Source: an uncultured Planctomycetales bacterium
GTDB lineage: Bacteria > Omnitrophota > Gorgyraeia > Zapsychrales > JAHFFX01
Length of the DNA: 64,000 nucleotides
NCBI GenBank assembly: GCA_964612665.1
Contig: CAZTCI010000003.1
Location: forward strand, 128,969 to 192,968
Direction of reading: 5' to 3'
Shown here piece after piece: positions 18,573 through 32,976 of this stretch (position 1 is the stretch's first letter; each line of letters begins with the position of its first letter). The notes below the pieces were generated by a model, which was not told the DNA's origin, ran no database searches, and saw only the letters and a program-made list of their open reading frames with translations. Made by a program: the position numbers and the translations under genes.

Positions 18573-18622
18573 GATTATAGCATAAGAATTTTGCTTAACA
18601 AATATTTTCTTATGCTATAATC
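18573..18622. promoter_or_regulatory. 16-bp perfect inverted repeat in the divergent PilZ / gspA control region
   Basis: The arms are GATTATAGCATAAGAA and TTCTTATGCTATAATC with an 18-nt spacer. Each arm contains a TATAAT-like -10 element facing the divergent genes. Confidence 0.4.
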
Positions 18623-18628
18623 CGCCTA

Positions 18629-20121: not shown

Positions 20122-20133
20122 TGCTCATTAAAT

Positions 20134-21222
20134 TCAAGCTTCACATTCCTTAAGAGCGGCTTCAATAATTTTTAACGGGATATCCATTACCACTTGAACT
20201 TTTCCAATATCACGTGCCAGGACAAAACGATTTTTTCCCGCCACAAACTTCTTGTCATGACGCATGGCTTTTAAAATATCAGATGTGGAAATCTTTTTAA
20301 AATAAAGCGGCAATCCGACGGCTTGTATCAAATCCTTTAAACGTTTTAATTGAACCCTAGAAAATAATTGCAGATTAACTGAAATCAATGCCGCCGCATG
20401 AATTCCGATCGCGATAGCTTCCCCATGCTGATATTGATTGTAACGGCCTGCAGACTCAATCGCATGGCCGAGCGTGTGGCCAAAGTTTAGAATGGTGCGT
20501 ATCCCTTTTGTTTCTTTCTCATCGCGTTTAACCACATCCGCTTTAATACGGCTGCAAACAGTTACCAATTTTATTAAAGCTGCCGGTTTTAAACTCAAAA
20601 TGTCTTTATAATCTTTTTCTAAATAATTAAAAAGATTTTTATCCGTGATGACACCATACTTAATGGCCTCAGCCAGGCCGTTGCGGATTTGACGTTCGCT
20701 TAATGTCGATAAAACTGCTACGTCACTGACAACAGCCCTCGGTTGGCAAAAACTTCCGACTAAATTCTTTCCGACCGGCAAATCGATGGCAACCTTTCCT
20801 CCAATGGCCGAATCGATTTGAGCCAATAATGTCGTTGGAATTTGAATATACGGAATTCCCCGCTTATACACACTAGCCACAAACCCAGCCAAATCGCCAA
20901 CCACACCACCGCCAAATGCTAGAATAAAAATCTTTCTCCCGACATCATAGGCAGCGATTTGATTTAAAAGTTTAAAGGCTTGCTCGGCCGATTTACTTCG
21001 CTCGCCATCAGGAACAACTAAGAATTTGGCTGAAAACTTTTCACGCTCTAATCCGGAGCTGATGCTATTTTTGTACCGTCGTAAAATACCGGGGTTCGTA
21101 ATAACAACGGCATCATGTCCGACGTTTAACGGTTTAATAATCGTCCCCAATTTTTCTAAAATTTTATACCCGACGTGTATATCATAACTATTTTCTTTTA
21201 ACGCTAACTTGATTTTGTTCAT
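20134..21222 (-). CDS. aroB: 3-dehydroquinate synthase
   Basis: The motif GGGVVGDLAGFVASVYKRGIPYIQIPTTLLAQIDSAIGGKVAIDL is present. Confidence 0.9.
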   Translation of the reverse strand: MNKIKLALKENSYDIHVGYKILEKLGTIIKPLNVGHDAVVITNPGILRRYKNSISSGLEREKFSAKFLVVPDGERSKSAEQAFKLLNQIAAYDVGRKIFILAFGGGVVGDLAGFVASVYKRGIPYIQIPTTLLAQIDSAIGGKVAIDLPVGKNLVGSFCQPRAVVSDVAVLSTLSERQIRNGLAEAIKYGVITDKNLFNYLEKDYKDILSLKPAALIKLVTVCSRIKADVVKRDEKETKGIRTILNFGHTLGHAIESAGRYNQYQHGEAIAIGIHAAALISVNLQLFSRVQLKRLKDLIQAVGLPLYFKKISTSDILKAMRHDKKFVAGKNRFVLARDIGKVQVVMDIPLKIIEAALKECEA

Positions 21223-21839
21223 ACGAGTTCAACTCCCAAATATCTAGCTAACCAAACGACAATAGGCAAAACTACACGTTGAAATCCCCCGCCCGAATAT
21301 AAAAAAAGGACAACCAGTAAAAGTCCGTATGGTTCCAATTGCGCATACCAATAGGCCAGAGGCTTCGGCAGTATTCCCAAAATAAATCTCGACCCGTCCA
21401 AAGGCGGAATGGGCATCAAATTAAATACCGCCAATAAAAGATTAATAAAAACCGCCGACGCTGCGATTTCCAAAATGATTGGTGAGGATTTAAGCCTTAA
21501 CAATTGACTAAAGATAATGGCAAAAACAATATTAACCGCTGGACCAGCCAGCGCCACCAAAATCATATCGCGTTTAGGATTTCTTAATGCGTTAAAATTA
21601 ACCGGCACGGGCTTCGCCCAGCCTAATATCGGAAGCTGCGCTCCTAACGAACGCAAAACTAAAATGATTCCAGGCAGCACAATTGTTCCCATCGGATCAA
21701 TATGCTTAAGCGGGTTTAACGTCAATCGCCCAGCGATCTTGGCCGTCGGATCACCCAAACGCCACGCTACCCATCCGTGAGCACATTCATGCAGGATAAC
21801 CGCGGGTATTAAAATAAAAAGTAGGACAAAAATTTCCAT
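21219..21839 (-). CDS. Site-2 protease family (peptidase M50) zinc metalloprotease
   Basis: An HECAHG (HExxH) motif sits in a TM helix. The LDG motif appears as PIPPLDGSR. The protein is polytopic. Confidence 0.75.
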   Translation of the reverse strand: MEIFVLLFILIPAVILHECAHGWVAWRLGDPTAKIAGRLTLNPLKHIDPMGTIVLPGIILVLRSLGAQLPILGWAKPVPVNFNALRNPKRDMILVALAGPAVNIVFAIIFSQLLRLKSSPIILEIAASAVFINLLLAVFNLMPIPPLDGSRFILGILPKPLAYWYAQLEPYGLLLVVLFLYSGGGFQRVVLPIVVWLARYLGVELV

Positions 21840-21845
21840 GGAAAT

Positions 21846-22679
21846 TTACAAAACTAATTGGATTTTTGAAACATCCAGGGCTGAAGGATTAGCCCAATCA
21901 GGAAGAGATTTTTTGAGAACACCCTCAACCGTTACTTGCGCGTTAACAAACTGTTCGAAGACATCGTTGGTGTTTTCTATATTGTATACAGTTCCATCTT
22001 GCGTCATCAATTTATATTTAAAATGAAATGATGGATCTGAAAAGTGGACGAGGTGACCAACGATGGTTAAGTTTGATTCCGGCTCCGGCGTTGGTGCGGG
22101 CGGATTGTTTCCTATCTCCGGTTTGGCAGCCGTTTCTACCGTCGGAGCTGAGGTATTAATGGTTTTTCGGGCAGATTCCGGAACAATTTTGGCCGTGACA
22201 GTTTCAGGAATTTGAACTGATTTGAATTTTAAGAATTGCACCGAAACCCAGCCAAAGGTTCCTTCCACTGCTTCAATTTGGATCCACCCATTTATTTTTT
22301 GAACCACGTGAACCCGCGCGCCCTGCACCAATTGTCCCAGCGACACAAAATTCGGACCGGCACCAGCTCGGATATTGACCCGGTGACCAGTGATCTCAGC
22401 GGTATGTTCGTCGATCATCGAGACAAAATCTTGACTGATAAAACTCTTAGCCTCCGCTGGAAGTTTGATTTTATACCAATCAAAACTTTTTCCAACGACA
22501 ATGACTTCTGAACCACGGCTTAAACGGCAGAGTTTTTCAAAATTTGTATTCTGTCCGGCACGGACGTTGACACTTTCAACACTCACTTCGGCGAGAAACG
22601 GAAATTTTTCTTCAGCATTCGCAATAAAAAAAGGCAACAGGCAAAAAAATAGTATTGTTAAAACTAATTTCTTTGCCAT
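21846..22679 (-). CDS. Secreted protein with two bacterial SH3 domains
   Basis: A signal peptide is present. The SH3b-like segments are VNVRAGQNTNFEKL...WYKIKLP and VNIRAGAGPNF...GWIQIE. Confidence 0.6.
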   Translation of the reverse strand: MAKKLVLTILFFCLLPFFIANAEEKFPFLAEVSVESVNVRAGQNTNFEKLCRLSRGSEVIVVGKSFDWYKIKLPAEAKSFISQDFVSMIDEHTAEITGHRVNIRAGAGPNFVSLGQLVQGARVHVVQKINGWIQIEAVEGTFGWVSVQFLKFKSVQIPETVTAKIVPESARKTINTSAPTVETAAKPEIGNNPPAPTPEPESNLTIVGHLVHFSDPSFHFKYKLMTQDGTVYNIENTNDVFEQFVNAQVTVEGVLKKSLPDWANPSALDVSKIQLVL

Positions 22680-22709
22680 GTTGCCCTCAATTGATTTGAA
22701 TAGAAAGGA

Positions 22710-23003
22710 TTACTTCTTAGCGCCAGCTTCAGGTTTTTTGGCTGCTTCCGGTTTCTTAGCGGCAGCGTCGGCTTTGGGTGCCGCGGCACCACCGGCGGCT
22801 GGAGCGGCCCCTTCTTTAGCTTCGGCTTTGGCAGCCTTCTTGGCTTTAAGCCTGACCACCTTTGTTTTCGGTAAACCAGTTGGACGTTGACTTTCTTTCC
22901 ACAAATTTTTCTTCATTAAATCTTTAAGGCGTTCAATACGGGAAAGAACCGAACGCTGCTGGCTTCCAGCGGGATCAGTCTTTAATGACGGGTGTAATGA
23001 CAT
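22710..23003 (-). CDS. Hypothetical basic protein with a histone H1-like Ala/Lys-rich tail
   Basis: The C-terminus reads KAKKAAKAEAKEGAAPAAGGAAAPKADAAAKKPEAAKKPEAGAKK. The stop abuts the SPOR gene. Confidence 0.4.
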   Translation of the reverse strand: MSLHPSLKTDPAGSQQRSVLSRIERLKDLMKKNLWKESQRPTGLPKTKVVRLKAKKAAKAEAKEGAAPAAGGAAAPKADAAAKKPEAAKKPEAGAKK

Positions 23004-23659
23004 TACATTCTCCTTACCAAGCTGTCTTTGTATTGTTTTCTTAGTTTACCTAAAATTTTGTCTGCTTCATTCTTATTAGCAAACTTACCGACGCACAAAA
23101 TAAAATAATTTCCTTTTTGCATGAGGAAACCGGTGGTTCCTTTTTTCTTTAACAACTCGATTTCCTGCTGGCCGTATTTCTCGGCTTTATAAGAAGCAAC
23201 CTGAATAGTATATCCGGTTTCTTCGGCGGGTGCCATAGAAGTTTGCGCCGTCGGCAAATTGGAAGGTGACATTCTATCATTAATTTCTAAATGGTCAACG
23301 TTATTTTCAGGGGAAGAAACAGAAACGGGAACGATTTGCGCGACGGAAGGCTGAGGATGAACAGCTGTCGCGCCGTTAACTCGGGTAATGGTTTGATTTT
23401 GAACCGGCGCCGTGACTTTAACAATAGGAGCAGGCCGCTGTGCCGAAATCTGGGGAACCTGTTTTATGTTCTTACCCCGCTCAACACCCATCGAAAAAAC
23501 CAAAACCATCGACATTAACGCGACAATACTTACGACAACCAAATTTTCCAACGATAATGTTAAGTTCGCAAAAAGATACCGCGGCTTACCGGCCTCCGAC
23601 GAACTTCCAGGGGTTCCTGGGAAAAGTTCGAATTGGGATTGCTTGTAGGTGATATTCAT
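23003..23659 (-). CDS. SPOR domain membrane protein (septal peptidoglycan binding)
   Basis: It has an N-terminal TM helix. The C-terminal SPOR fold reads GYTIQVASYKAEKYGQQEIELLKKKG...FILCVGKFANKNEADKI. Confidence 0.7.
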   Translation of the reverse strand: MNITYKQSQFELFPGTPGSSSEAGKPRYLFANLTLSLENLVVVSIVALMSMVLVFSMGVERGKNIKQVPQISAQRPAPIVKVTAPVQNQTITRVNGATAVHPQPSVAQIVPVSVSSPENNVDHLEINDRMSPSNLPTAQTSMAPAEETGYTIQVASYKAEKYGQQEIELLKKKGTTGFLMQKGNYFILCVGKFANKNEADKILGKLRKQYKDSLVRRM

Positions 23660-23778
23660 ACATCCTCTTTCTTGATATCTATCTTTCTTAGCCTAAATAA
23701 TTTTATATTTGAGCTTCGAACTATGTTCGGTCAAAAATAAGCTGATGTAAATAATTGGAATTGATCGCTATTATAAAA

Positions 23779-24849
23779 TCATCGTTGAATTGAACTCAAG
23801 TACTTTCTAAACTTTTTTTGACGAGCGAGATCACAAAAAGAATCGACCACTTTGGGATCAAATTGGGTGCCGCTGTTTTGCTTAATTTCATGAACGGCTT
23901 CATCCAATGTTAATGTTCCCTTATAAGGCCGGCCTAAAATCATCGCTTCAAAAGCATCGACGAGTGCCATAACGCGCGCTCCGAGCGGAATCTCTTCTTT
24001 CTTTAACCCCGACGGGTAGCCCGTTCCGTCGTATTTTTCATGATGATATAAAATAATCGGTAAGACTGGTTTAAGAAAATCAACCGGCCGAATCAATTCA
24101 ACACTTTTAGCCGGATGATTGCGGATGATTTTAAATTCCTCCGGCGTTAAACGGCTGGCTTTGGAAAGGATTTCAAACGGCACGTCGATCGCGCCGGCGT
24201 CGTGCAGGACGCTCGCATAATAAAGCGATTCAATCCCATCTTGTCCCATGGATAATTTTTCAGCCAAGGCCTTGGCAATTTTGAAATAGATAGGTGTGTG
24301 TTTGGAACTCAAATGGCTTTGCTTTTCCAAAAGATTTCCAATAAATTTCATGCTGCCTAAAATGGCGCGCTGATGTTCTTCATGCAGCTGCAAATTTTTA
24401 ATGGCGGTCACGGCCTGCTCGGCAAAAACGGTCAGCATCTCTTTGTCGAATTCGGTAAAGGCCGGTTCGTACGGTTTACGCCGCACTAAAATTGATCCAA
24501 TATTGTCGTCGCCAACAAGCGGTAACGCAATTAAATGTTTTTCAGAAATCGCAAGCCCTATTGTAACTTTTCTTTCCCTCAAGGGAATTTTAAAAAGGTC
24601 CTTTTTTTTATCAATCACTGTATTGATTTCATTATTAAAGACGGCGACCAAGCTGATCCGCTTTTTGACAGGATCCAAAATGTAAACGCTCGCCGAACTG
24701 GCATGAATAAATTGGCACAACAGGCGGGTCAAACGCAAAGAAAGTTCTTTGACGTTATACGTCGAATTCACCAGCCGGTACACCATGTGCACGGCGGATA
24801 AAATCTTTTTATACTTTTTCGTATGGATTGAAGAGTTTCTTGTGCTCAT
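23779..24849 (-). CDS. GAF-domain HD-GYP phosphodiesterase (c-di-GMP hydrolysis)
   Basis: The HD...HHEKYDGTGYP motif is present, with an N-terminal GAF-like region. The alternative start MVYRLV would remove the 41-nt overlap with the upstream dGTPase-like gene. Confidence 0.8.
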   Translation of the reverse strand: MSTRNSSIHTKKYKKILSAVHMVYRLVNSTYNVKELSLRLTRLLCQFIHASSASVYILDPVKKRISLVAVFNNEINTVIDKKKDLFKIPLRERKVTIGLAISEKHLIALPLVGDDNIGSILVRRKPYEPAFTEFDKEMLTVFAEQAVTAIKNLQLHEEHQRAILGSMKFIGNLLEKQSHLSSKHTPIYFKIAKALAEKLSMGQDGIESLYYASVLHDAGAIDVPFEILSKASRLTPEEFKIIRNHPAKSVELIRPVDFLKPVLPIILYHHEKYDGTGYPSGLKKEEIPLGARVMALVDAFEAMILGRPYKGTLTLDEAVHEIKQNSGTQFDPKVVDSFCDLARQKKFRKYLSSIQR

Positions 24850-25978
24850 CTAAAGCAAACCGGTCGGTCATGCCGGCGATATGGTTGCAAATAATTTCAT
24901 ATTCAGCCTTTTTAGTATATTTTTTGTCACGCAAATAAATAGAATACGGCAGCTGCGTTGGATTTTCTTTATAGACTTCGAACAAGTCATAAATAATCCG
25001 TCGAGCTTTGGAGGTCATCCGCTCGACGCGGTAATGATGATACAGCTTTTCATTTAACAGCAGCTGCAAACGGTTGCGCTGATTTTCCATCGTTGGACTA
25101 AAGGCGATAGTTCTTTTTTTACTTTTTTTAACATCCTTAGAAGATTTAAATCCCGATGAGCTGATATTCTGACTTGATGCCTTTAAAAGGTCTTTGACCT
25201 GCATATCGATTAGTTCCTTGACGATTTGATACTTTATCATCTCACGGTTGTGCGCTTTTAAAGTGGCGGTCACTTTATTAAGCGCAGCCTGCCACAAACC
25301 GCTTTCACGCAAATCATCTTCACAAATGCATCCCGACGTCAATCCGTCATCGATATCATGATTCAAATACGCCAGCGAATCCGCGATATCGACGATCTGC
25401 GCTTCCAGCGTCGGTCCTTCCTGTGTCAGGCGCTTTTCAATGCTAGGCATATCAAACGGTGTATGGTGTTTTAAAATGCCGACCAGGACTTCGCGCGAAA
25501 GATTTAATCCGTCAAAATTAGGATAGCGCTTTTCAAATTTGGTTACAATTTCAAAGCTGCGCTTGTTGTGGTTGAACCCTTTAAACCCGGCCGTGACCAT
25601 AATTTTATTTAAAGCTTCTTCGCCGGCGTGGCCGAAAGGCGGATGCCCCAAATCATGCGCGAGGGCGATTGCTTCAATCAGATCTTCGTTAAGACATAAA
25701 TTCCGGCCGATCGTGCGGCCGATTTGGGCAACTTCAATTGTGTGTGTGAGGCGCGTGCGGTAATAATCACCTTCAAAAATAATAAAAACCTGCGTCTTAT
25801 ATTCAAGTTTCCGGAAAGCTTCTGAGTGAATAATCCGGTCACGGTCGCGCTGATACGCGGTGCGCGTTTCGTGCGGCGCTTCAAAATATTCACGCCCCGA
25901 CGAATCCTTGCTTTTCATGGCGTACGGCGCCAAAATTCTATCTTCGAGCTCTTCGAGGTTTTGCCTGGTTCGCATCAT
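24809..25978 (-). CDS. dGTP triphosphohydrolase-like HD-domain protein
   Basis: The HD motif HDLGHPPFGHAGE is present, with dGTPase family architecture in a protein of about 380 aa. Confidence 0.85.
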   Translation of the reverse strand: MMRTRQNLEELEDRILAPYAMKSKDSSGREYFEAPHETRTAYQRDRDRIIHSEAFRKLEYKTQVFIIFEGDYYRTRLTHTIEVAQIGRTIGRNLCLNEDLIEAIALAHDLGHPPFGHAGEEALNKIMVTAGFKGFNHNKRSFEIVTKFEKRYPNFDGLNLSREVLVGILKHHTPFDMPSIEKRLTQEGPTLEAQIVDIADSLAYLNHDIDDGLTSGCICEDDLRESGLWQAALNKVTATLKAHNREMIKYQIVKELIDMQVKDLLKASSQNISSSGFKSSKDVKKSKKRTIAFSPTMENQRNRLQLLLNEKLYHHYRVERMTSKARRIIYDLFEVYKENPTQLPYSIYLRDKKYTKKAEYEIICNHIAGMTDRFALDEHKKLFNPYEKV

Positions 25979-26447
25979 AAAGTCGCTGCCACAGATCTAA
26001 AAGCGATTGAGAAACAATTTTAGTGTTCGCCACAACCGGCATAAAATTGACATCACCTTTCCAGCGGGGCACAATATGAATATGCAGGTGCCCAGGAAAA
26101 CCGGCACCCGCCGCCTTGCCTAAATTGATACCAATATTATAACCGTTAGGCTTCATGGTTTTATCTAATAATTTTTTTGTTTTTTCCATGAGCTCAAACA
26201 ATTCCAATTTCTCCGGCGAAGTCAATTTCGTCAAATCAGCAACATGACGATACGGAACAATCATAATGTGCCCATTATTATAAGGATAAATATTTAAAAC
26301 TGAAAATGTATGCTGAGCGCGTTCCACAATAAATGTGGCTTTATCGTTTTTTTGTTTAATCATCTGGCAAAAAACACATTGCCCCTGATCCCGTTTCTTC
26401 AAACGAAAAATATACTTAACACGCCAAGGCGCCCAAAGATAATCCAT
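25938..26447 (-). CDS. HIT family nucleotide hydrolase/transferase
   Basis: The histidine triad HLHIHIV and a CxxC zinc site are present. Confidence 0.75.
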   Translation of the reverse strand: MDYLWAPWRVKYIFRLKKRDQGQCVFCQMIKQKNDKATFIVERAQHTFSVLNIYPYNNGHIMIVPYRHVADLTKLTSPEKLELFELMEKTKKLLDKTMKPNGYNIGINLGKAAGAGFPGHLHIHIVPRWKGDVNFMPVVANTKIVSQSLLDLWQRLYDANQAKPRRARR

Positions 26448-26930
26448 TTATTTGACCTTAATAATTTTGCTGCGAATTGTTTTGCCGGAGTTGACTTCTA
26501 ATATGCCATAAGACCGGTAAGGAGCGGTGATGGTATCGGTGGGACTTCCAGGATTAAAATATAAAACGTCACCCACTCTCTCATTAAACGCCATATGCGA
26601 GTGGCCAAAAACCACACATTCAACCGCATCACTTTTAAATTCTCGACGGACACTATCTAAAACCTGCTGAGGCGAACCGGTACCATGGAAGACGCCAATC
26701 GCATGTCCTTCGAGATTTAAAATTTGCTTACCCGGCAGACGGCGCGCCAAAGAAACCTCATCCATATTTCCATGCACGGCTTTAATTTCTTTAATTTCTG
26801 CCAATCTTTCAAAATCCTTAAGTGTACAAAAATCTCCCGCATGAATAATCAAATCCAGCCGGTTAAATTCTTTCACCATTTGCTGTGGCAAAAGACCTGA
26901 ATGCGTATCAGCGACAACGCCTATTTTCAT
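26448..26930 (-). CDS. YfcE-like metallophosphoesterase
   Basis: Motifs VADTHSG, ...GDF..., and GHSH are present. Confidence 0.75.
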   Translation of the reverse strand: MKIGVVADTHSGLLPQQMVKEFNRLDLIIHAGDFCTLKDFERLAEIKEIKAVHGNMDEVSLARRLPGKQILNLEGHAIGVFHGTGSPQQVLDSVRREFKSDAVECVVFGHSHMAFNERVGDVLYFNPGSPTDTITAPYRSYGILEVNSGKTIRSKIIKVK

Positions 26931-28573
26931 TTCACAATAAAAGGTTTATCATAAAAACTTAAAAGCGCGTTTAATTCTTTCTCATTCCAAATCCACATGC
27001 GTTCTTGCAAGGCCTTGACCCGCGTATTTTCGTCTAAATTTTCTAACGAAATAATTATCCGTCGCTGAGGTTTCTCTTGGGACTTTTTTAAGGCGGCCAA
27101 AAAAGTATTAACGTCATTTTCACATAAGCCGTCTTTTTTAAAGACAATGAACCAAGGCCCTTCTTCGCTGACCGCTTTAATCACTTCAAACTCGGTTTTC
27201 GTTGTATCTTCCCATGAAATCGGCATGATCTCTTGAAAGGCCGGCAATTTATATTTCCGGCCGTTGAGACTGAAAGCTTCATTATCAAAACACGTTAAAA
27301 GCTCGACGATACGCGAAGAAAATTCCTGCTCAGAAATCAGCTGAAAATTATTAACCGCTCGTCTTAGGTCTTCGCGCAAGCGTTCTTTTTGTTTTGAGAA
27401 CGGGCGTTCAACCGATTGGATTCTTTTTTGAAACACATACTGAATCCAATATTTGAGCAGTTTATCCTGAAAATGAAAAAGCTGGCCGTGCTTAACAATC
27501 ACACCTATTTCCAAAAGACAGTTAATGCGGTTATTAAGTGTCGCAGATTTAATACCCAAATGATCGGAAATGTCTTTAATTTTATTTTTGCCGTTGGCTA
27601 AGGCAATCAAAAGTGACGCCATGCCATGATTATTTTTCCCCTGGCACAAATCGCGCACAATCGTTTCGAAATGCCGACTTAAAATCCCCCAGCTGTCTAA
27701 AATTACATTTTCAATCGCCTCGGTCACGAGAGGCATATAAACTTCCGTCTGCTTATGCAGAAGACTTAAACGGCTTAATTCTTTAACAATTAAATTCAAG
27801 TAAAGTGGATGCCCGCCAGTAAAATCGGCCAGAAAGTTACGCGGCTGTTCGTTGATATGCACTTCATTAAGATGGTATTGAATAAACTGCTGGCTGGTTT
27901 GGGAATCAAATGGTTCAATCTCGATAACTTCGAAATTGCCGAAAAGCAGTGAAAGTTTTTCAGAAAGGATTTTTTTGGCGATAATGGGAAATGAACTGGT
28001 CACGATATAAATACATTTTTGCTGGGTCATGATTTTTTTACCCAGTTCTTGAAATACCTCCAGGATATCAAACCCCTGTAGATCCTGGAACTCATCCAAA
28101 ATAATGACGCAGTATTTGCCCGATTCAATGGTGAAAACATCCGGCAACGAAATCAACTGACGGTAAGCTTCATCGACCTTCTCTTTGGCAAGATGCGCTT
28201 GAACACTTTTAATCACTTCAATTGTCTGCGGAATAAACGGATGGGCATTTTCGATAAGCAGTGTTATGTCGTCGAATAAAGGAAGATTTTTGGATTTAGA
28301 AAAATTATATAAAAGACTGCGGATAAATTTCGCGAAAAAATAATAAAGATCTTTATGATCCAAATCAATGTCAATAACAATAAGAGAATCTTCTTCAAGT
28401 TCAGCGGTAAACTTTTCCAAAATTGAGGTTTTACCGACAAACCGGTTGCCTAAAAAAGCAACATTCTGCCGGTACCCTTCTTTAAGGTCAAGGACCCGGC
28501 GTTTCAATATCTCTAGAGTTGTTTTGCGTCCAAAAAAATGACTGCCCATAAAACCTACATGTACGGATTGCAC
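26927..28573 (-). CDS. Archaeal-type P-loop ATPase (ATPase_2/DUF234-like) with a C-terminal winged helix-turn-helix
   Basis: A Walker A motif, GNRFVGKTS, and Walker B, VIILDEFQD, are present. A C-terminal wHTH reads NRINCLLEIGVIV. The stop overlaps the phosphoesterase start by 4 nt. Confidence 0.6.
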   Translation of the reverse strand: MQSVHVGFMGSHFFGRKTTLEILKRRVLDLKEGYRQNVAFLGNRFVGKTSILEKFTAELEEDSLIVIDIDLDHKDLYYFFAKFIRSLLYNFSKSKNLPLFDDITLLIENAHPFIPQTIEVIKSVQAHLAKEKVDEAYRQLISLPDVFTIESGKYCVIILDEFQDLQGFDILEVFQELGKKIMTQQKCIYIVTSSFPIIAKKILSEKLSLLFGNFEVIEIEPFDSQTSQQFIQYHLNEVHINEQPRNFLADFTGGHPLYLNLIVKELSRLSLLHKQTEVYMPLVTEAIENVILDSWGILSRHFETIVRDLCQGKNNHGMASLLIALANGKNKIKDISDHLGIKSATLNNRINCLLEIGVIVKHGQLFHFQDKLLKYWIQYVFQKRIQSVERPFSKQKERLREDLRRAVNNFQLISEQEFSSRIVELLTCFDNEAFSLNGRKYKLPAFQEIMPISWEDTTKTEFEVIKAVSEEGPWFIVFKKDGLCENDVNTFLAALKKSQEKPQRRIIISLENLDENTRVKALQERMWIWNEKELNALLSFYDKPFIVK

Positions 28574-28589
28574 CGTTTAAAAAAAATTT

Positions 28590-29279
28590 TTATTGCGGCA
28601 GATAAAATAATGGATTATCTGCCCGAGCATTTCTTCTTATTTCAAAATGTTCAAACGCTAAATCGCCTTTTTTACCAACTTGCGCAACTGGCTTCCCTTG
28701 GTCGACTGCCTCATCCAAACCAACGAGCAGTTTGGAATTCTGCGCATAAACTGAATGATATCCGTCGGAGTGGGCAACAATAACGGTATAAGCATAGCCG
28801 TTTAAATAATCGGCAAAAACAACTTTGCCGGAACGGGCCGCTTTCACAACCTCACCTTCACTGGCCTGAATATCAATGCCTCGGTTGACATCCAAGCCTT
28901 TATGATTTCCAAAATAAGAAATAACAGTTCCCTTGATTGGCCATTGAAAGTCATTATCCTTAGGTCCTTTTTCAGGGATAGTGACCGTCCGGACTTCATC
29001 AGCGCCAGGAATAAAAATCAGTTGGTCTTTTTCAATTTTGGCGACATTAGGAATATTGTTGCTTTTGATGACTTCGTCAATACCGACCCCATACGTCTGT
29101 GCGATCCGCCAAAGCGTTTCACCGGGATGAACTTTGTGGTAAACACCCTTGCCTACCGGCTTGGTTGCCGTGGGCAAGACAGCTGTTTTCGTTGCCGACG
29201 GGGGTGTTGTGGTCGCGCAACCGGCGATGATTGAAACTAAGCCCAGCAAAATTCCGGTCAGGATTTTTTTAGTGCTCAA
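28590..29279 (-). CDS. LysM plus degenerate M23 (LytM) lipoprotein, NlpD/EnvC-like
   Basis: A lipobox IIAGC is present. The LysM segment is GETLWRIAQTYGVGIDEV. The M23 fold lacks the catalytic HxxxD and HxH residues. Confidence 0.75.
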   Translation of the reverse strand: MSTKKILTGILLGLVSIIAGCATTTPPSATKTAVLPTATKPVGKGVYHKVHPGETLWRIAQTYGVGIDEVIKSNNIPNVAKIEKDQLIFIPGADEVRTVTIPEKGPKDNDFQWPIKGTVISYFGNHKGLDVNRGIDIQASEGEVVKAARSGKVVFADYLNGYAYTVIVAHSDGYHSVYAQNSKLLVGLDEAVDQGKPVAQVGKKGDLAFEHFEIRRNARADNPLFYLPQ

Positions 29280-29360
29280 TTTTATACCTTTAATTTCATG
29301 CTGGGTTTTTCCTTCACGAAAAATTTAGTCTTTTAATCAAAGGAAAAACCTTAGCATTAA

Positions 29361-29391
29361 ATTTTGTCATCCCTTGGGACGACAAAATTTA
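29361..29391 (-). terminator. Hairpin terminator downstream of tRNA-Gly
   Basis: The sequence aaattttgtc-atcccttgggac-gacaaaattt has a perfect 10-bp stem, followed by T-rich sequence on the minus strand. Confidence 0.4.
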
Positions 29392-29463
29392 AGCGAGGGA
29401 CGGGGATTGAACCCGCGACGTCAAGCTTGGGAAGCTTGCATTCTACCACTGAATTACCCTCGC
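29392..29463 (-). tRNA. tRNA-Gly (anticodon CCC)
   Basis: The sequence folds by hand into a cloverleaf: GCGAGGGTAATTCAGTGGTAGAATGCAAGCTTCCCAAGCTTGACGTCGCGGGTTCAATCCCCGTCCCTCGCT. The acceptor is 7 bp, the anticodon loop is TTCCCAA, and the T-loop is GTTCAATCC. CCA is not encoded. Confidence 0.8.
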
Positions 29464-29481
29464 ATATTCGTTGGTCCGTTG

Positions 29482-29546
29482 TTCGTTGTTCGGGGAATTC
29501 ATGTTTTTATTTAAAAAAATAGAAGAACGAATTCCACGAACAACGA
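29482..29546. repeat. Interrupted hairpin between thiE and tRNA-Gly
   Basis: The stems ttcgttgttcg / cgaacaacgaa (11 bp) and ggaattc / gaattcc flank an AT-rich loop. Confidence 0.4.
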
Positions 29547-29575
29547 AAGCAGAGACTGTTGAATGATAACATTTG

Positions 29576-29645
29576 AACGCGAATTCTCGCGAATTGCACA
29601 CAAATATTCGCGAATATTAGTGTGCAATTCGCGAGAATTCGCGTT
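29576..29645. repeat. 70-bp near-perfect palindrome upstream of tRNA-Gly
   Basis: The 26-bp arms are aacgcgaattctcgcgaattgcacac and gtgtgcaattcgcgagaattcgcgtt. They flank a self-palindromic core, aatattcgcgaatatt. There is one mismatch overall. The TCGCGA and GAATTC sub-motifs recur. Confidence 0.6.
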
Positions 29646-29687
29646 AACCTTTCGATTTTTCAACAATCTCAAAGCACGAACGACGAT

Positions 29688-30317
29688 TCAACTCATGACC
29701 TTCAAAAATCTTTTAGTTGCCTCTAACGGCGAAGGCGCTTCACAAATCGCCCGGCAAACAGCGATACGATTAATCCCTTGCGTTTTCAAAATCTGCGCTT
29801 TTTTTAAATCAATCCCGCCGATCGCAAAAATAGGCAGCGGCGTTTTTCGAATCGCTACTGTTAGCAAATTTAAATCCATCGGCTCACGGTCTGGTTTGGT
29901 TTTCGTTTTAAAGACTGAACCAAACCCGATGTAATCAGCACCCTCATGCACGGCGTTTTTTAGCTGCGGCCATTTCTGACAAGAAGTCCCGATAATCGCT
30001 TGAGGTCCTAAGATTTTTCTCGCCAGCGAAACGGGTAAATCATCTTGTCCGACATGAACTCCGTCGGCGCCTGAAGCCGAGGCCAAATCCGCGCGGTCAT
30101 TTAAGATAAAAGGCACGCGGCCTTTTAACAATTTAACGAGCTTCTTAGAAAAATCGAAAATTGCTTTGGCCGAACTCTGTTTATCGCGAAGCTGTATAAT
30201 ATCAATACCGCCGGCAACCGCCTGCCGCGCGGTTTCAAACAACGCCTCGAAACCCGCCACATCTCGGTCTAAAATCAAATAAATCTTAGCGCCCAACAAT
30301 TTTTGTTTCGACTGCAT
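29688..30317 (-). CDS. thiE: Thiamine-phosphate synthase
   Basis: The 209-aa product has a TIM barrel. The motifs are IIQLRDK and GADGVHVGQDD. Confidence 0.85.
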   Translation of the reverse strand: MQSKQKLLGAKIYLILDRDVAGFEALFETARQAVAGGIDIIQLRDKQSSAKAIFDFSKKLVKLLKGRVPFILNDRADLASASGADGVHVGQDDLPVSLARKILGPQAIIGTSCQKWPQLKNAVHEGADYIGFGSVFKTKTKPDREPMDLNLLTVAIRKTPLPIFAIGGIDLKKAQILKTQGINRIAVCRAICEAPSPLEATKRFLKVMS

Positions 30318-30699
30318 AAGTCTGATAACGCAATTTCTTTAACCGTTCGGCGGTGCGGGTATCGATCAGCTTCACGAATTCTTCCAAAACCCGTAACGAT
30401 TCTTTAAGCCGCTGTGAATTTGCGTAAAGAATGTCGTCGACATCTTCCCGCTTTAGTTCTGAAACTTGCGAACGAACGCCGATATCGCCTTCAATGTTAC
30501 GTTCTTTTATTAACTTTTTTACATCTAAAGCTTCAACCGCCGCGGTTAATTCGTGGCGGATTCTTTTATAAGCCCGCGTGTTGGCTGAATCATCCCGGAT
30601 AAAACGGCAAACATCTTCACAAACCCGCGCCGCTTCTTTGGCCCGGTTAAAATTAGCATCGATCGTCCGCCAAATTTTCTTGTCATCTATTTTGGACAC
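30286..30699 (-). CDS. Hypothetical protein overlapping the thiE start; possibly a ThiE-associated domain
   Basis: The 137-aa product is helical and charged. Its stop overlaps the thiE start by 32 nt. No confident family match was made by eye. Confidence 0.35.
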   Translation of the reverse strand: MSKIDDKKIWRTIDANFNRAKEAARVCEDVCRFIRDDSANTRAYKRIRHELTAAVEALDVKKLIKERNIEGDIGVRSQVSELKREDVDDILYANSQRLKESLRVLEEFVKLIDTRTAERLKKLRYQTYAVETKIVGR

Positions 30700-31175
30700 T
30701 GCTTTAAAATATTTTCGATGATATTCGTCGTGGAGAATGAATCCACATATTTGATAAATTCAACCCGGCCGCCGTTTTTCTTAACGATATCAGCACCGAC
30801 GACTTCTTTGCCTTTCCAATCCGCACCTTTAATCAAGACATCAGGTTTAAGAGCTTCAATAACTTTAATCGGCGTTGGTTCGTCAAAAATGGTGACAAAA
30901 TCAACACACGCAAGTCCTGCCATTAAGGCCGCGCGTTCCTTTTGACCAACAATAGGTCTTAGCGGTCCTTTAATCGCCTGCACGGATTGATCACTATTTA
31001 AAGCCACAATCAAAATACGGTTATTCTTTTTAGCGCTTTCTAAATAACTAACATGACCAAAATGTAAAATATCAAAACACCCATTAGTCAACGCAATTGC
31101 TTGTCCTTTGCGACGTAATGGCGCAAGACGTTTTTTCAAAGAAGCCAGATTTAAAATTTTGTTTTGCGAATTCAT
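30687..31175 (-). CDS. D-beta-D-heptose 1-phosphate adenylyltransferase (RfaE domain II / HldE C-terminal domain, stand-alone)
   Basis: The cytidylyltransferase-like motif GCFDILHFGH is present in a 162-aa protein. Confidence 0.8.
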   Translation of the reverse strand: MNSQNKILNLASLKKRLAPLRRKGQAIALTNGCFDILHFGHVSYLESAKKNNRILIVALNSDQSVQAIKGPLRPIVGQKERAALMAGLACVDFVTIFDEPTPIKVIEALKPDVLIKGADWKGKEVVGADIVKKNGGRVEFIKYVDSFSTTNIIENILKQCPK

Positions 31176-31216
31176 TTTGTCAAATTACGAGCATCCACAA
31201 AACGCGGAATGTTTTC

Positions 31217-31792
31217 TTAAGAAAATTGATTTTCAACGAGTTCGCAAATGGTATGCGCCATACAGATGTGTGATTCTTGAATGCGGGCGGTTATTTTTGA
31301 AGCGGCAATTAAATTGACATCGCATAGCGGCGCCAAATTTCCGCCGCTGCCACCGGTCAAAGAAATAACTTTAAGCCCTAGCTCCTTAGCTTTTTTTACA
31401 CCTTCAATAACATCTTTGGAATTACCACTGGTTGAAATCGCGACAACCACATCACCGGGGCGGCCAAGGGCTTCGAGCTGGCGGGCAAAAACGATGTCGA
31501 AGCTGTAATCATTTCCGAGGGCGGTTAGAATGGAGGTGTCGGTCGTTAAGGCCAAAGCGGCTAAAGCGCGTCTTTCCTTTTGGAAACGCCCGACGAATTC
31601 AGCTGCAATATGCTGACTGTCGGCGGCAGACCCGCCGTTTCCCATAAATAAAATCTTGCTGTTATTCTTTAAAGCGGCAGCAATGATCTCAACCGCTTTA
31701 ATCATGGCATCAAGATTATTCTTTAACGTTTCTTGTTTAACGCGGATCGATTCCGCGAAAATGGATTGAATAATTTCTTTCATAAATATCAC
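31217..31792 (-). CDS. gmhA: Phosphoheptose isomerase (SIS domain)
   Basis: The motif GNGGSAADSQHIAAEFVGRF is present. The likely start codon is GTG. Confidence 0.85.
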   Translation of the reverse strand: MIFMKEIIQSIFAESIRVKQETLKNNLDAMIKAVEIIAAALKNNSKILFMGNGGSAADSQHIAAEFVGRFQKERRALAALALTTDTSILTALGNDYSFDIVFARQLEALGRPGDVVVAISTSGNSKDVIEGVKKAKELGLKVISLTGGSGGNLAPLCDVNLIAASKITARIQESHICMAHTICELVENQFS

Positions 31793-31796
31793 GAAA

Positions 31797-31905
31797 CAGC
31801 GGGTCCTGCCACGATGATACGTTCGTGGGCCCCTCCGCCCGGTGTAGATCCTCCCACTCTCTCCTCACCGCGTCACCCGCTGTCAACGAATGGCTTTAAT
31901 AATTA
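31797..31905 (-). promoter_or_regulatory. GC-rich structured 5' leader upstream of gmhA; candidate cis-regulatory RNA
   Basis: The minus-strand RNA has a 9-bp closing helix, ACAGCGGGU...ACCCGCUGU, which encloses about 75 nt. Inner hairpins are GUGGG...CCCAC and CACGA...UCGUG. The 3' arm of the helix lies next to an AGGA Shine-Dalgarno and the start codon. Confidence 0.25.
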
Positions 31906-31911
31906 TAGTGA

Positions 31912-32946: not shown

Positions 32947-32976
32947 AGATCAAACTTTCTCAAGGTTAGCGTAAAT

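What the first reader, a model, noticed from the sequence alone, without database searches (positions are those of the whole stretch)
23779..28573. Tightly overlapping five-gene operon: AAA ATPase with wHTH, metallophosphoesterase, HIT, dGTPase-like and GAF–HD-GYP
Five minus-strand genes are arranged with 4-nt and 41-nt overlaps or direct abutment, so they are almost certainly co-transcribed. Every product acts on nucleotides. The first is an archaeal-type P-loop ATPase with a C-terminal winged helix and the second a YfcE phosphoesterase. The third is a HIT hydrolase (for NpnN or nucleotidyl transfer). The fourth is a dGTP triphosphohydrolase-like HD protein and the fifth a GAF-regulated HD-GYP c-di-GMP phosphodiesterase. 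dGTPases and STAND/AAA ATPases are established components of anti-phage dNTP-depletion systems. HIT, MPE and HD-GYP enzymes degrade signalling nucleotides. The combination could be a nucleotide-signal turnover or defence-like module, not five unrelated housekeeping genes.
Basis: inference. Interest (0 to 1): 0.6.

Follow-up and report, generated by a model that had tools for sequence, protein, structure and literature searches.

The report
Housekeeping gene run in conserved Omnitrophota backbone
The five tightly packed nucleotide-handling genes are real and correctly identified, but they are an ordinary stretch of a much longer, vertically inherited housekeeping gene array of an Omnitrophota bacterium, not a separate anti-phage or signalling module.

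Summary
Observation confirmed. Five minus-strand genes (AAA+ ATPase with winged helix, YfcE phosphoesterase, HIT, dGTPase, GAF–HD-GYP) lie at the stated coordinates with 4-nt, 0-nt, 41-nt and 41-nt junctions.

The defence or dedicated-module reading is not supported. The window comes from an Omnitrophota genome in which 58 of 60 large ORFs share one strand and 26 of 58 junctions are 10 nt or less.

After the ATPase, all four partners are collinear in 61 of 64 related species genomes. So are the flanking housekeeping genes (PFK, GmhA-like, ThiE, tRNA-Gly, LysM-M23, SPOR, M50 protease, AroB), over at least 21 kb. Unrelated gene pairs in the same block overlap just as tightly.

The dGTPase passes the housekeeping NCBIfam model and fails the anti-phage one. 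Its Thermus ortholog sits behind the fab genes. No flanking gene matches a defence model, and the ATPase has no match on plasmids or phages. The block breaks or takes insertions inside the five genes, at MPE|HIT.

The likely transcription unit starts at the M23 gene, after a hairpin behind tRNA-Gly, and reads on past the fifth gene.

The least understood part is the ATPase. It is an Orc1/Cdc6-like family found in at least 554 species, with an uncharacterised 170-residue C-terminal domain.

The parts
26927..28573 (-). AAA+ ATPase of the ATPase_2 (Orc1/Cdc6-like) type with a winged helix (about residues 310-365) and an uncharacterised C-terminal alpha/beta domain (372-540). The start is GTG 28573 (548 aa) or ATG 28549 (540 aa, public call).
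   Evidence: Pfam ATPase_2 scores 33.8 bits against a cut-off of 33.2, and HTH_24 is weak. A profile hit to PDB 2FNA has E = 1.2e-7. The AF2 model has pLDDT 86. The top Foldseek matches are 2QEN and 2FNA, then Orc1/Cdc6. Walker A GxxxxGK and Walker B DEF are invariant in 22 relatives. For the C-terminal domain the best fold match has E = 5e-3, and DDE_3 is sub-threshold in 7 of 19 members. At least 554 species genomes encode a relative.
26448..26930 (-). YfcE/MJ0936-type metallophosphoesterase, 160 aa. It overlaps the ATPase stop by 4 nt.
   Evidence: Metallophos_2 has E = 9e-37. TIGR00040 scores 103 bits against a cut-off of 56. The PDB matches are 2KKN and MJ0936. The metal motifs DTHs, HaGD, GNMD and GHsH are conserved in 78 sequences (the window copy plus orthologs). 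The ATPase|MPE junction has a median of -4 nt and is 10 nt or less in 86% of loci.
25938..26447 (-). HIT protein of the Ap4A-phosphorylase (Rv2613c-like) branch, 169 aa. It abuts the MPE gene.
   Evidence: Pfam HIT has E = 5e-15. PDB 3ANO/3WO5, an AP-4-A phosphorylase, matches at E = 1e-37 over residues 3-157. The WAPWR, CxFC and HxHxH motifs are conserved. The C-terminal tail that overlaps the dGTPase gene is not conserved.
24809..25978 (-). Short-form dNTP/dGTP triphosphohydrolase (TT1383-like), 389 aa. It overlaps the HIT gene by 41 nt, or 38 nt from its second ATG.
   Evidence: HD plus HD_assoc. NF002326 scores 452 against a cut-off of 390, while antiphage_dGTPase scores 243 against 400. 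PDB 2DQB matches at E = 1.7e-90 over the full length. Mean pairwise identity among the 40 genomes compared (39 loci plus the window) is 0.65.
23779..24849 (-). GAF–HD-GYP protein, 356 aa, with intact HD and HHExxDGxGYP motifs in this genome. It overlaps the dGTPase gene by 41 nt.
   Evidence: HD_5 scores 144.9 bits; GAF_3 scores 26.2 against a cut-off of 27. PDB 4MCW (named only 'Metal dependent phosphohydrolase' in the output; from memory this is PmGH, a GAF–HD-GYP enzyme) matches at E = 6e-31 over residues 82-340, and 5Z7C, a cGAMP phosphodiesterase, also matches. The long N-terminus is supported by codon analysis. Only 17 of 66 sequences keep all the presumed metal ligands.
28590..29279 (-). 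LysM–M23 peptidase gene, 16-40 nt upstream of the ATPase gene. It is the probable first gene of the transcription unit.
   Evidence: Pfam LysM plus Peptidase_M23. It lies directly upstream of the ATPase in 67 of 67 loci. The junction median is 8 nt.
29392..29463 (-). tRNA-Gly(CCC), a conserved landmark between thiE and the M23 gene.
   Evidence: ARAGORN and Rfam detect it. The same tRNA is at the same place in 17 of 20 loci checked.
29357..29392 (-). A 17-bp hairpin directly 3' of tRNA-Gly, followed by a U-rich stretch. It is the probable upstream boundary of the transcription unit.
   Evidence: Inverted repeat I3. Folding gives dG = -24.8 kcal/mol with z = -6.8.
20134..23659 (-). Downstream continuation of the same co-directional array: SPOR protein (23003..23659), 97-aa basic protein (22710..23003), SH3 protein (21846..22679), M50 protease (21219..21839) and AroB (20134..21222). 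It ends at a convergent plus-strand gene (end at 20121).
   Evidence: ORFs are and Pfam assignments. These genes are collinear in 56-60 of 59-62 loci. The spacer between GAF-HD-GYP and SPOR has no significant structure (z = -1.35).
29688..32946 (-). Upstream part of the conserved backbone: ThiE (29688..30317), ThiD2 (30286..30699), cytidylyltransferase (30687..31175), SIS/GmhA-like (31217..31792) and PFK (31912..32946).
   Evidence: Pfam assignments are. These genes are collinear in 52-62 of 56-67 loci. Synteny continues to both ends of the 10-kb flanks.

Best explanation
The five genes are ordinary, vertically inherited housekeeping genes. They lie in the middle of a long co-directional gene array of an Omnitrophota genome.

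The array is most likely transcribed from a start just downstream of the tRNA-Gly hairpin, beginning with the LysM-M23 gene. It runs through ATPase, MPE, HIT, dGTPase and GAF-HD-GYP into SPOR, the small basic protein, SH3, M50 protease and AroB. Transcription then meets a convergent gene. Short overlaps give translational coupling, as they do elsewhere in this compact genome.

Each enzyme most likely does its family's usual job, independently of the others:
- dGTPase (TT1383-type): trims dNTP pools.
- HIT (Rv2613c-type): phosphorolyses Ap4A-like dinucleoside polyphosphates.
- MPE (YfcE/MJ0936-type): a small Mn/Ni-dependent phosphodiesterase.
- GAF–HD-GYP: hydrolyses a cyclic dinucleotide in this genome. 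In many relatives it has lost metal ligands and probably only binds.
- ATPase: an Orc1/Cdc6-like ATP-dependent DNA-binding switch of unknown target.

Shown here: gene content, junctions, conservation and collinearity, family membership, and the absence of defence hallmarks. Inferred: the extent of the transcription unit and every biochemical activity.
For: 1. The whole window is one co-oriented array. 58 of 60 ORFs of 120 aa or more are on the minus strand, GC skew is uniform, 26 of 58 junctions are 10 nt or less, and there is another run of 8 tight junctions.
2. In 80 Omnitrophota species loci, the 16-gene string from PFK to AroB is collinear. All four partners follow the ATPase in 61 of 64 loci, but M23 (67/67), SPOR (60/62), AroB (57/59) and PFK (53/56) are kept equally well. 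tRNA-Gly is in place in 17 of 20 loci. Synteny reaches both ends of the 10-kb flanks.
3. Tight junctions occur between unrelated genes in the same block: cytidylyltransferase|ThiD2 at -13 nt (90% at 10 nt or less), M50|AroB at -1 nt (77%) and SPOR|p97 at 1 nt (95%).
4. Rearrangements fall inside the five genes. L069 and L070 break after the MPE gene, L079 lacks HIT, and L077 has a 173-aa ORF inserted between MPE and HIT.
5. The genes evolve slowly and congruently with their flanks. Mean pairwise identity is 0.65 for the dGTPase, 0.61 for GAF-HD-GYP and 0.59 for HIT, against 0.69 for PFK and 0.57 for AroB. Spearman correlations between the five and the flanks (up to 0.67) match those within the five (0.37-0.72).
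6. The dGTPase passes the housekeeping equivalog and fails the anti-phage model. Its full-length match is TT1383. The Thermus ortholog lies 3 nt behind fabF, with none of the other families within 7 kb.
7. No PADLOC hits occur in 10 flanking proteins, and the ATPase is absent from plasmids and phages.
8. Strong hairpins lie in the thiE|M23 spacer, and none in the GAF-HD-GYP|SPOR spacer.
Against: - The four internal junctions are somewhat tighter and more uniformly conserved than the two junctions that bound the five. Internally 82-86% are 10 nt or less. For M23|ATPase the figure is 55%, and for GAF-HD-GYP|SPOR it is 13% (medians 8 and 16 nt). A weak extra coupling within the five is therefore not excluded.
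- All five do bind or cleave nucleotides, so a loose functional theme is possible.
- The PADLOC dGTPase model matches strongly (E = 3e-95).
- Only the best 80 of at least 554 loci were held, and all lie within one phylum. Only one neighbourhood outside the phylum (Thermus) was examined.
- There are no transcript data.
Confidence: 0.7

Rival explanations
1. The five genes, possibly together with the M23 gene, form a selected functional operon for nucleotide housekeeping or signalling. The wHTH ATPase would sense or regulate. The MPE, HIT, dGTPase and HD-GYP enzymes would jointly clear alarmone-like dinucleotides (Ap4A, cyclic dinucleotides and their linear products) and trim dNTPs.
For: - Conserved overlaps: medians of -4, 1, -23 and -41 nt, with 82-86% of species at 10 nt or less.
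- Catalytic motifs of the MPE, HIT and dGTPase are conserved across 56-78 sequences, the window copy plus orthologs.
- The closest solved relatives all act on nucleotides: TT1383, the Rv2613c Ap4A phosphorylase, MJ0936, and the HD-GYP / cGAMP phosphodiesterases.
- ATPase|MPE stays linked even where the block breaks.
Against: - Collinearity and tight junctions are equally strong for unrelated neighbours.
- HIT can be lost (L079), the block can be split at MPE|HIT (L069, L070), and it can be interrupted there (L077).
- Only 17 of 66 GAF-HD-GYP sequences keep all presumed metal ligands, so hydrolysis by that member is not the conserved feature.
- The Thermus dGTPase ortholog has none of these partners.
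- 'Acts on nucleotides' is a very broad category. This last point is an inference.
Confidence: 0.2
2. The cluster is an anti-phage defence system. A STAND-like ATPase sensor would control dNTP depletion by the dGTPase, and the HIT, MPE and HD-GYP enzymes would degrade immune signalling nucleotides.
For: - The PADLOC dGTPase model matches at E = 3e-95, and the HIT protein matches ThsC2 (HIT family) at E = 4e-11.
- dGTPases are established nucleotide-depleting defence effectors (PMC13519002).
Against: - The dGTPase fails NCBIfam antiphage_dGTPase (243 against 400) and passes the housekeeping equivalog.
- In PADLOC the ATPase matches only through its winged helix (Csa3/CasR-type HTH) and one 19.8-bit N-terminal hit. 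It has no repeat sensor domain, and its fold is ATPase_2 / Orc1-Cdc6.
- The genes are present at the same locus in nearly every related species, they evolve slowly and congruently with PFK and AroB, and there is no compositional anomaly.
- There are no defence neighbours.
- The ATPase has no plasmid or phage copies.
- According to PMC13519002, defence dGTPases act alone or as fusions with immune domains, not with these partners.
Confidence: 0.03
3. Only the ATPase and the MPE form a true two-gene unit: an Orc1/Cdc6-like AAA+ protein with a nuclease-like C-terminal domain working with a small phosphodiesterase on DNA or a nucleotide-linked substrate. The other three genes are passengers.
For: - The ATPase|MPE junction has a median of -4 nt, with 86% of loci at 10 nt or less.
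- The MPE follows the ATPase in 73 of 73 loci, including L069 and L070 where everything downstream is replaced.
- The C-terminal domain has weak nuclease-like similarities: restriction-endonuclease-like structures and DDE_3 in 7 of 19 members.
Against: - The M23 gene is just as constantly linked upstream (67 of 67 loci), so constancy alone does not single out the pair.
- L010 has a spacer of about 230 nt between the two genes (offset 234; maximum gap 230).
- The nuclease-like similarities are all below significance, and the candidate acidic residues are not invariant.
- The MPE is a bare 160-aa core with no DNA-binding addition.
Confidence: 0.12

Closest known systems
Thermus thermophilus TT1383 dNTP triphosphohydrolase (PDB 2DQB; NCBIfam NF002326 / PRK01286 short-form dGTPases)
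   Same: Full-length similarity: E = 1.7e-90, 45% identity, the same length class, HD and HD_assoc domains, and a conserved LAHDLGHPPFGH motif.
   Different: The genomic context differs. In Thermus the gene follows fabH-fabD-fabG-acpP-fabF; here it follows a HIT gene. The activity of the Omnitrophota enzyme has not been tested.
Anti-phage dGTPase defence genes (PADLOC dGTPase; NCBIfam NF041026; PMC13519002)
   Same: The same HD-domain dGTPase superfamily. The PADLOC model matches at E = 3e-95.
   Different: - Below the curated anti-phage cut-off (243 against 400).
- Kept in place at a conserved locus in 66 of 68 loci.
- No defence-island neighbours.
Mycobacterium tuberculosis Rv2613c Ap4A phosphorylase (PDB 3ANO, 3WO5)
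   Same: HIT fold with the HxHxH motif. The alignment covers residues 3-157 at E = 1e-37, including the N-terminal WAPWR-type segment.
   Different: It is below the cut-off of the actinobacterial equivalog NF052622 (160 against 290). Whether it performs phosphorolysis or hydrolysis has not been tested.
HD-GYP cyclic-dinucleotide phosphodiesterases (PDB 4MCW, which I recall as PmGH; 5Z7C, a 3'3'-cGAMP-specific phosphodiesterase, V-cGAP3 from memory; 4R8Z, a cyclic di-GMP phosphodiesterase, PA4781 from memory)
   Same: Sequence similarity that runs from the N-terminal, GAF-assigned part into the HD-GYP domain (query residues 82-340 against 4MCW). That 4MCW itself is a GAF–HD-GYP protein is from memory. 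The HD and HHExxDGxGYP motifs are intact in the window copy.
   Different: In 49 of 66 sequences at least one presumed metal ligand is replaced, and 27 lack the His of the HD motif. The conserved role in this lineage may therefore be binding rather than hydrolysis.
Archaeal ATPase_2 proteins (PF01637; PDB 2FNA SSO1545, 2QEN PABY2304) and Orc1/Cdc6
   Same: An AAA+ core plus lid plus winged helix. These are the top Foldseek matches (E = 2e-12 and 3e-11; Orc1/Cdc6 at 1e-10), and a profile hit to 2FNA has E = 1.2e-7.
   Different: - It is bacterial, with one copy at a fixed locus in each of the 80 loci examined (genome-wide copy number was not checked), and relatives occur in at least 554 Omnitrophota species.
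- It carries an extra 170-residue C-terminal domain that Pfam does not recognise as DUF234 or anything else.
- The Arg of the archaeal LFGR motif is Asn here.
YfcE / MJ0936 metallophosphoesterases
   Same: TIGR00040 is above its cut-off, all metal-binding motifs are present, and the size is the same.
   Different: The substrate is unknown. Here the gene is translationally coupled to an AAA+ ATPase gene.

Membership tests
Anti-phage dGTPase (defence) | Scores above the curated cut-off of the anti-phage dGTPase model (NF041026) | tested here: not met
   243.2 bits against a cut-off of 400. The housekeeping equivalog NF002326 scores 452.2 against 390. The PADLOC dGTPase model does match (E = 3e-95), but that library lists no curated cut-off.
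Anti-phage dGTPase (defence) | Patchy presence, defence-island or mobile context | tested here: not met
   - Present at the same locus in 66 of 68 related species loci.
- The 10 flanking proteins have no PADLOC hit.
- The flanks are PFK, ThiE, AroB and similar genes.
Anti-phage dGTPase (defence) | Protects against phage by dNTP depletion | not testable with these tools
   This needs expression in a phage-sensitive host.
Housekeeping short-form dGTPase/dNTPase (PRK01286, TT1383-like) | Equivalog HMM above its cut-off, full-length similarity to TT1383, and a conserved HD metal site | tested here: met
   NF002326 scores 452 against 390. 2DQB matches at E = 1.7e-90 over residues 4-382. LAHDLGHPPFGH is at least 95% conserved in 69 sequences, the window copy plus orthologs.
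STAND / AVAST-type defence NTPase | STAND NTPase core with a C-terminal repeat sensor and an effector domain; matches to defence models | tested here: not met
   - The fold is ATPase_2 / Orc1-Cdc6 AAA+.
- There are no TPR, WD40 or LRR repeats.
- PADLOC matches only the winged helix, plus one 19.8-bit hit to PDC-S27 over residues 12-87.
ATPase_2 (PF01637) archaeal-type AAA+ ATPase | Pfam gathering score, Walker A and B motifs, structural similarity to 2FNA/2QEN | tested here: met
   33.8 bits against 33.2, which is marginal. GxxxxGK and DEF are invariant. Foldseek gives E = 2e-12 and 3e-11 with a target TM-score of about 0.7.
ATPase_2 (PF01637) archaeal-type AAA+ ATPase | The usual C-terminal DUF234 (PD-(D/E)xK-like) partner domain. 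That this is the usual partner is from memory of Pfam. | tested here: inconclusive
   No DUF234 hit appears even at E = 1. Weak structural hits to restriction-endonuclease-like folds have E of 5e-3 or worse. DDE_3 is sub-threshold in 7 of 19 members.
HIT Ap4A phosphorylase (Rv2613c-like) | The HxHxHxx histidine triad, and similarity to Rv2613c beyond the HIT core | tested here: met
   P.H.H.H.VPRW is conserved. 3ANO matches at E = 1e-37 over residues 3-157. The actinobacterial equivalog NF052622 is below its cut-off (160 against 290). Phosphorylase activity has not been tested.
Thoeris ThsC (HIT) accessory | A HIT protein encoded next to ThsA/ThsB | tested here: not met
   The ThsC2 model matches only at generic HIT level (E = 4e-11). 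No ThsA- or ThsB-like neighbour is present.
YfcE-type metallophosphoesterase | TIGR00040 above its cut-off, and the metal-binding motifs | tested here: met
   103.1 bits against 56.25. The DTH, GD, GNMD and GHSH motifs are conserved.
HD-GYP cyclic-dinucleotide phosphodiesterase | The HD_5 domain with HD and HHExxDGxGYP motifs | tested here: met
   HD_5 scores 144.9 bits. The window copy has H216-D217 and H269-H270-E271…D274-G-T-G-Y-P. Across orthologs the metal ligands are often lost: only 17 of 66 sequences are complete.
Operon (single transcription unit of exactly these five genes) | Its own promoter upstream of the ATPase gene and its own terminator after GAF-HD-GYP | tested here: inconclusive
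   - Only 16-40 nt separate the M23 gene from the ATPase gene.
- The spacer after GAF-HD-GYP has no terminator-like site or significant structure.
- The strong hairpins lie upstream of the M23 gene.
- Consensus scans are not above the shuffled controls.
- Transcripts cannot be tested here.

The most novel reading that the evidence does not exclude
The Orc1/Cdc6-like AAA+ / winged-helix protein with its uncharacterised, possibly nuclease-derived C-terminal domain occupies a fixed locus in at least 554 Omnitrophota species. On this reading it is a phylum-specific core DNA-binding factor. It would work with the translationally coupled YfcE phosphodiesterase, and perhaps govern the downstream HIT, dNTPase and HD-GYP genes as a dedicated circuit for nucleotide signalling and dNTP homeostasis. 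That would make the tight five-gene coupling selected rather than inherited by inertia.
Probability: 0.12. Interest if true: 0.5.

Novelty: new member of a known kind. Interest (0 to 1): 0.2.

Why it matters
As a candidate defence or signalling module it does not hold up, and this shows two things. First, in compact, strongly co-oriented genomes with deep synteny, overlap and conserved adjacency alone cannot be read as shared function. Second, a strong PADLOC dGTPase match can be a housekeeping enzyme.

Three items remain of modest interest:
- A well-conserved bacterial ATPase_2 / Orc1-Cdc6-like family with an unknown C-terminal domain and no known role.
- Widespread loss of metal ligands in an otherwise highly conserved HD-GYP protein.
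- Gene order preserved over at least 21 kb among Omnitrophota species that share only about 50-65% protein identity.

Tried and rejected
- A paper search for PF01637/DUF234 returned only DUF2345 type VI secretion papers because of prefix matching.
- A two-sequence dGTPase profile (window plus TT1383) was meant to pull in many phyla. It returned only Omnitrophota and Thermus proteins, so only one neighbourhood outside the phylum was examined.
- The apparent insertion between MPE and HIT in L061 is a masked stretch (X/N) inside the HIT gene, not a real insertion.
- Promoter and terminator consensus scans were no better than shuffled controls and were given no weight.
- Rfam found nothing but the tRNA.
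- A prophage, plasmid or horizontally acquired island was considered and rejected. Composition is uniform, there are no plasmid or phage matches, and divergence is congruent with the flanks.
- An Mre11/SbcD-like role for the MPE was considered and rejected. The protein is a bare 160-aa YfcE/MJ0936/Vps29-type core.

Full report
**1. Observation**

- ATPase: 26927..28573
- Metallophosphoesterase (MPE): 26448..26930
- HIT: 25938..26447
- dGTPase: 24809..25978
- GAF–HD-GYP: 23779..24849

The junctions are a 4-nt overlap, direct abutment, a 41-nt overlap and a 41-nt overlap.

Public gene calls on identical contigs start the ATPase at ATG 28549 (540 aa). They start the last gene at Met22 (335 aa), which would turn the last overlap into a 22-nt gap. 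Codon analysis of 66 sequences (the window copy plus orthologs) contradicts the short form. Residues 17-21 (LSAVH), upstream of Met22, are conserved in 60-66 of 66 with free third-position variation, and Met22 is Ile in five. The 41-nt overlap therefore stands.

The dGTPase most likely starts at its second ATG, which is the conserved start in orthologs. That gives a 38-nt rather than a 41-nt overlap with the HIT gene.

**2. Gene identities**

- ATPase_2, marginal at 33.8 bits against a cut-off of 33.2, plus a weak winged helix.
- Metallophos_2 / TIGR00040 YfcE.
- HIT.
- HD + HD_assoc / NF002326 dGTPase.
- HD_5, with GAF_3 just below its cut-off.

The closest solved structures are as follows:
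- dGTPase: TT1383 dNTPase (2DQB, E = 1.7e-90, full length).
- HIT: M. tuberculosis Ap4A phosphorylase (3ANO, E = 1e-37).
- MPE: 2KKN and MJ0936.
- GAF–HD-GYP: 4MCW (from memory the HD-GYP enzyme PmGH), a 3'3'-cGAMP phosphodiesterase (5Z7C) and a cyclic di-GMP phosphodiesterase (4R8Z; PA4781 from memory).

Catalytic motifs of the MPE, HIT and dGTPase are conserved in 56-78 sequences, the window copy plus orthologs.

The ATPase model (pLDDT 86) best matches the archaeal AAA+ ATPases PABY2304 and SSO1545, then Orc1/Cdc6.

Modelled on its own (pLDDT 83), this domain has no significant PDB match. The best E-value is 5e-3, with the restriction-endonuclease-like proteins EcoT38I, VC1899 and MspJI, plus Rpb5, among the weak hits. 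It also has only sub-threshold DDE_3 hits, in 7 of 19 family members.

**3. Context in the window**

The window is from an Omnitrophota genome (source names).
- 58 of 60 ORFs of 120 aa or more lie on the minus strand.
- GC content and skew are uniform.
- Of 58 same-strand junctions, 26 are 10 nt or less and 18 are overlaps. Besides the run of four tight junctions in the finding, there is a run of eight at 38.5-48 kb.
- With p = 0.45, about 1.3 runs of four or more are expected in a window of this size (my arithmetic).

Co-orientation and tightness are therefore background properties here.

The five genes are also not bounded:
- A LysM–M23 peptidase gene ends 16-40 nt upstream.
- A SPOR-domain gene starts 119 nt downstream, across a spacer with no significant structure (z = -1.35).
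- The only spacer with obvious signals is thiE|M23. It holds tRNA-Gly(CCC), a 35+35-nt palindrome (dG = -49.8, z = -10.5) and a 17-bp hairpin directly behind the tRNA (dG = -24.8, z = -6.8).

The simplest transcription-unit model runs from the M23 gene, through the five genes, to AroB. There a convergent plus-strand gene ends at 20121. This model is inferred, not shown.

**4. Neighbourhood conservation**

The ATPase belongs to a family of about 545 residues, 41-62% identical to the window protein. It is found in at least 554 species-representative genomes, nearly all labelled Omnitrophota or carrying generic labels.

In the 80 loci held, tblastn with 16 window proteins shows one collinear string: PFK, SIS/GmhA-like, cytidylyltransferase, ThiD2, ThiE, M23, ATPase, MPE, HIT, dGTPase, GAF-HD-GYP, SPOR, p97, SH3, M50 and AroB.

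All four partners follow the ATPase in 61 of 64 loci with enough sequence. The flanks are kept just as well:

| Gene | Collinear loci |
|---|---|
| M23 | 67/67 |
| SPOR | 60/62 |
| AroB | 57/59 |
| PFK | 53/56 |

tRNA-Gly(CCC) is in place in 17 of 20 loci. Collinearity continues to both ends of the 10-kb flanks. The five genes are thus a segment of a conserved backbone of at least 21 kb.

Junction statistics:

| Junction | Median gap (nt) | Loci with gap of 10 nt or less |
|---|---|---|
| ATPase\|MPE | -4 | 86% |
| MPE\|HIT | 1 | 86% |
| HIT\|dGTPase | -23 | 86% |
| dGTPase\|GAF-HD-GYP | -41 | 82% |
| M23\|ATPase | 8 | 55% |
| GAF-HD-GYP\|SPOR | 16 | 13% |
| cytidylyltransferase\|ThiD2 | -13 | 90% |
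| SPOR\|p97 | 1 | 95% |
| M50 protease\|AroB | -1 | 77% |

The last three pairs have no evident functional relation, yet are as tight as the five. Overlap is therefore not evidence of shared function in this lineage.

The rearrangements that do occur fall inside the five genes, at MPE|HIT:
- L069 and L070 replace everything after the MPE gene with a transporter and SmpB.
- L079 lacks HIT.
- L077 has a 173-aa ORF inserted between MPE and HIT.

**5. Evolutionary mode**

Mean pairwise identities among the 40 genomes compared (39 loci plus the window):

| Gene | Mean pairwise identity |
|---|---|
| dGTPase | 0.65 |
| GAF-HD-GYP | 0.61 |
| HIT | 0.59 |
| MPE | 0.52 |
| ATPase | 0.50 |
| PFK | 0.69 |
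| GmhA-like | 0.63 |
| AroB | 0.57 |

Rank correlations of pairwise identities between the five and their flanks are as high as those within the five (0.37-0.72). Examples are ATPase-M50 at 0.67, ATPase-AroB at 0.61, GAF-HD-GYP-PFK at 0.65 and dGTPase-PFK at 0.61. This is the pattern of slow, vertical co-inheritance. It is not that of mobile, fast-evolving defence genes.

**6. Defence tests**

- PADLOC gives a strong dGTPase match (E = 3e-95) and a generic HIT/ThsC2 match.
- PADLOC matches the ATPase only through its winged helix, plus one 19.8-bit hit.
- NCBIfam separates the two kinds of dGTPase. The housekeeping equivalog NF002326 is passed (452 against 390) and antiphage_dGTPase NF041026 is failed (243 against 400).
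- None of ten flanking proteins matches any PADLOC model.
- The ATPase has no tblastn match in 72,556 plasmids or 50,697 phage records.
- The recent survey of defence dGTPases describes stand-alone enzymes or fusions to immune domains, not this company (PMC13519002).
- Outside the phylum, the Thermus antranikianii ortholog lies 3 nt behind fabF, at the end of fabH-fabD-fabG-acpP-fabF. No HIT, MPE, HD-GYP or ATPase_2 gene lies within 7 kb. That is another case of this housekeeping gene riding in an unrelated operon.

**7. Most likely explanation**

Confidence is about 0.7 that these are five housekeeping genes inside a long, vertically inherited, co-transcribed array, each doing its family's usual job:
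- dNTP pool trimming (dGTPase).
- Turnover of Ap4A-type dinucleoside polyphosphates (HIT).
- A small phosphodiesterase (MPE).
- A cyclic-dinucleotide phosphodiesterase (GAF–HD-GYP).
- An Orc1/Cdc6-like ATP-dependent DNA-binding protein of unknown target (ATPase).

A real five-gene nucleotide-homeostasis operon is not excluded (about 0.2). Its internal junctions are somewhat more uniformly tight than the two bounding junctions. But nothing distinguishes it from inherited order, and one member is often catalytically degenerate. A defence system is unlikely (about 0.03). An ATPase-MPE two-gene unit is possible (about 0.12, and not exclusive of the others).

**8. Novelty and score**

All five proteins are members of known families, and the arrangement is explained by lineage-wide synteny. 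Interest as a candidate module is low (0.2).

The residual unknown is the ATPase family. It sits at a fixed locus in the 80 loci examined and has relatives in hundreds of species. In it, Asn replaces the Arg of the archaeal LFGR motif, and the C-terminal domain is unassigned.

Noticed in passing
window 1..64000: Extreme strand co-orientation. 58 of 60 ORFs of 120 aa or more are on the minus strand, and plus-strand GC skew is negative in 30 of 32 2-kb bins. The only plus-strand genes are 18629..20121.
   Followed up: partly
window about 16700..38400; loci L001-L080: Gene order over at least 21 kb (about 30 genes plus tRNA-Gly) is preserved in 80 Omnitrophota species genomes that share only about 50-65% protein identity. 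This is unusually deep synteny for non-ribosomal genes.
   Followed up: partly
window 23779..24849 and orthologs in L001-L079: The GAF–HD-GYP protein is highly conserved, with GYP, E271 and much of the N-terminus invariant. Yet only 17 of 66 sequences (window plus orthologs) keep all presumed metal ligands, and 27 lack the His of the HD motif, mostly replaced by Arg. The window copy is intact. The ligand positions were assigned from motifs, not from a structure.
   Followed up: partly
window 24786..24849: The public gene call for GAF–HD-GYP (335 aa, starting at Met22) is probably 21 codons too short.
   Followed up: yes
window 29576..29645: A near-perfect 35+35-nt palindrome lies between thiE and tRNA-Gly (dG = -49.8 kcal/mol, z = -10.5). 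A second imperfect inverted repeat lies at 29482..29547. Their function is unknown, and their conservation in other loci was not checked.
   Followed up: no
window 29357..29392: A 17-bp hairpin lies directly 3' of tRNA-Gly(CCC), followed by a U-rich stretch (dG = -24.8, z = -6.8). It is the likely terminator that sets the upstream end of the transcription unit containing the five genes.
   Followed up: partly
window 26927..27433 (ATPase residues 372-540): The C-terminal alpha/beta domain has invariant motifs (FDNE…NGRxYKLP and ALQExxWIWxExEL) and no confident relative. Only weak similarities to restriction-endonuclease-like folds and to DDE_3 were found.
   Followed up: partly
window 27935..27961 (ATPase LSLLFGNFE motif): The Arg of the archaeal ATPase_2 'LFGR' motif (2FNA) is Asn in this family, conserved in at least 90% of members. 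If that Arg is the arginine finger, ATP turnover may differ. This is an inference.
   Followed up: no
L077 12201..12722: A 173-aa ORF is inserted between the MPE and HIT genes in one species. By eye it looks KilA-N/ORF6N-like, but no domain search was run.
   Followed up: no
window 18629..19432 (+): A second P-loop ATPase of the AAA_16/AAA_22/ATPase_2 clan lies in the neighbourhood, according to the precomputed Pfam list. It is convergent with AroB and also syntenic, in 39 of 43 loci.
   Followed up: no
window 22710..23003: A 97-aa protein with no Pfam hit has a Lys/Ala/Pro-rich basic tail. It starts at the last base of the SPOR gene's stop codon (1-nt overlap in the window; median gap 1 nt across loci) and is conserved across the loci.
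   Followed up: no
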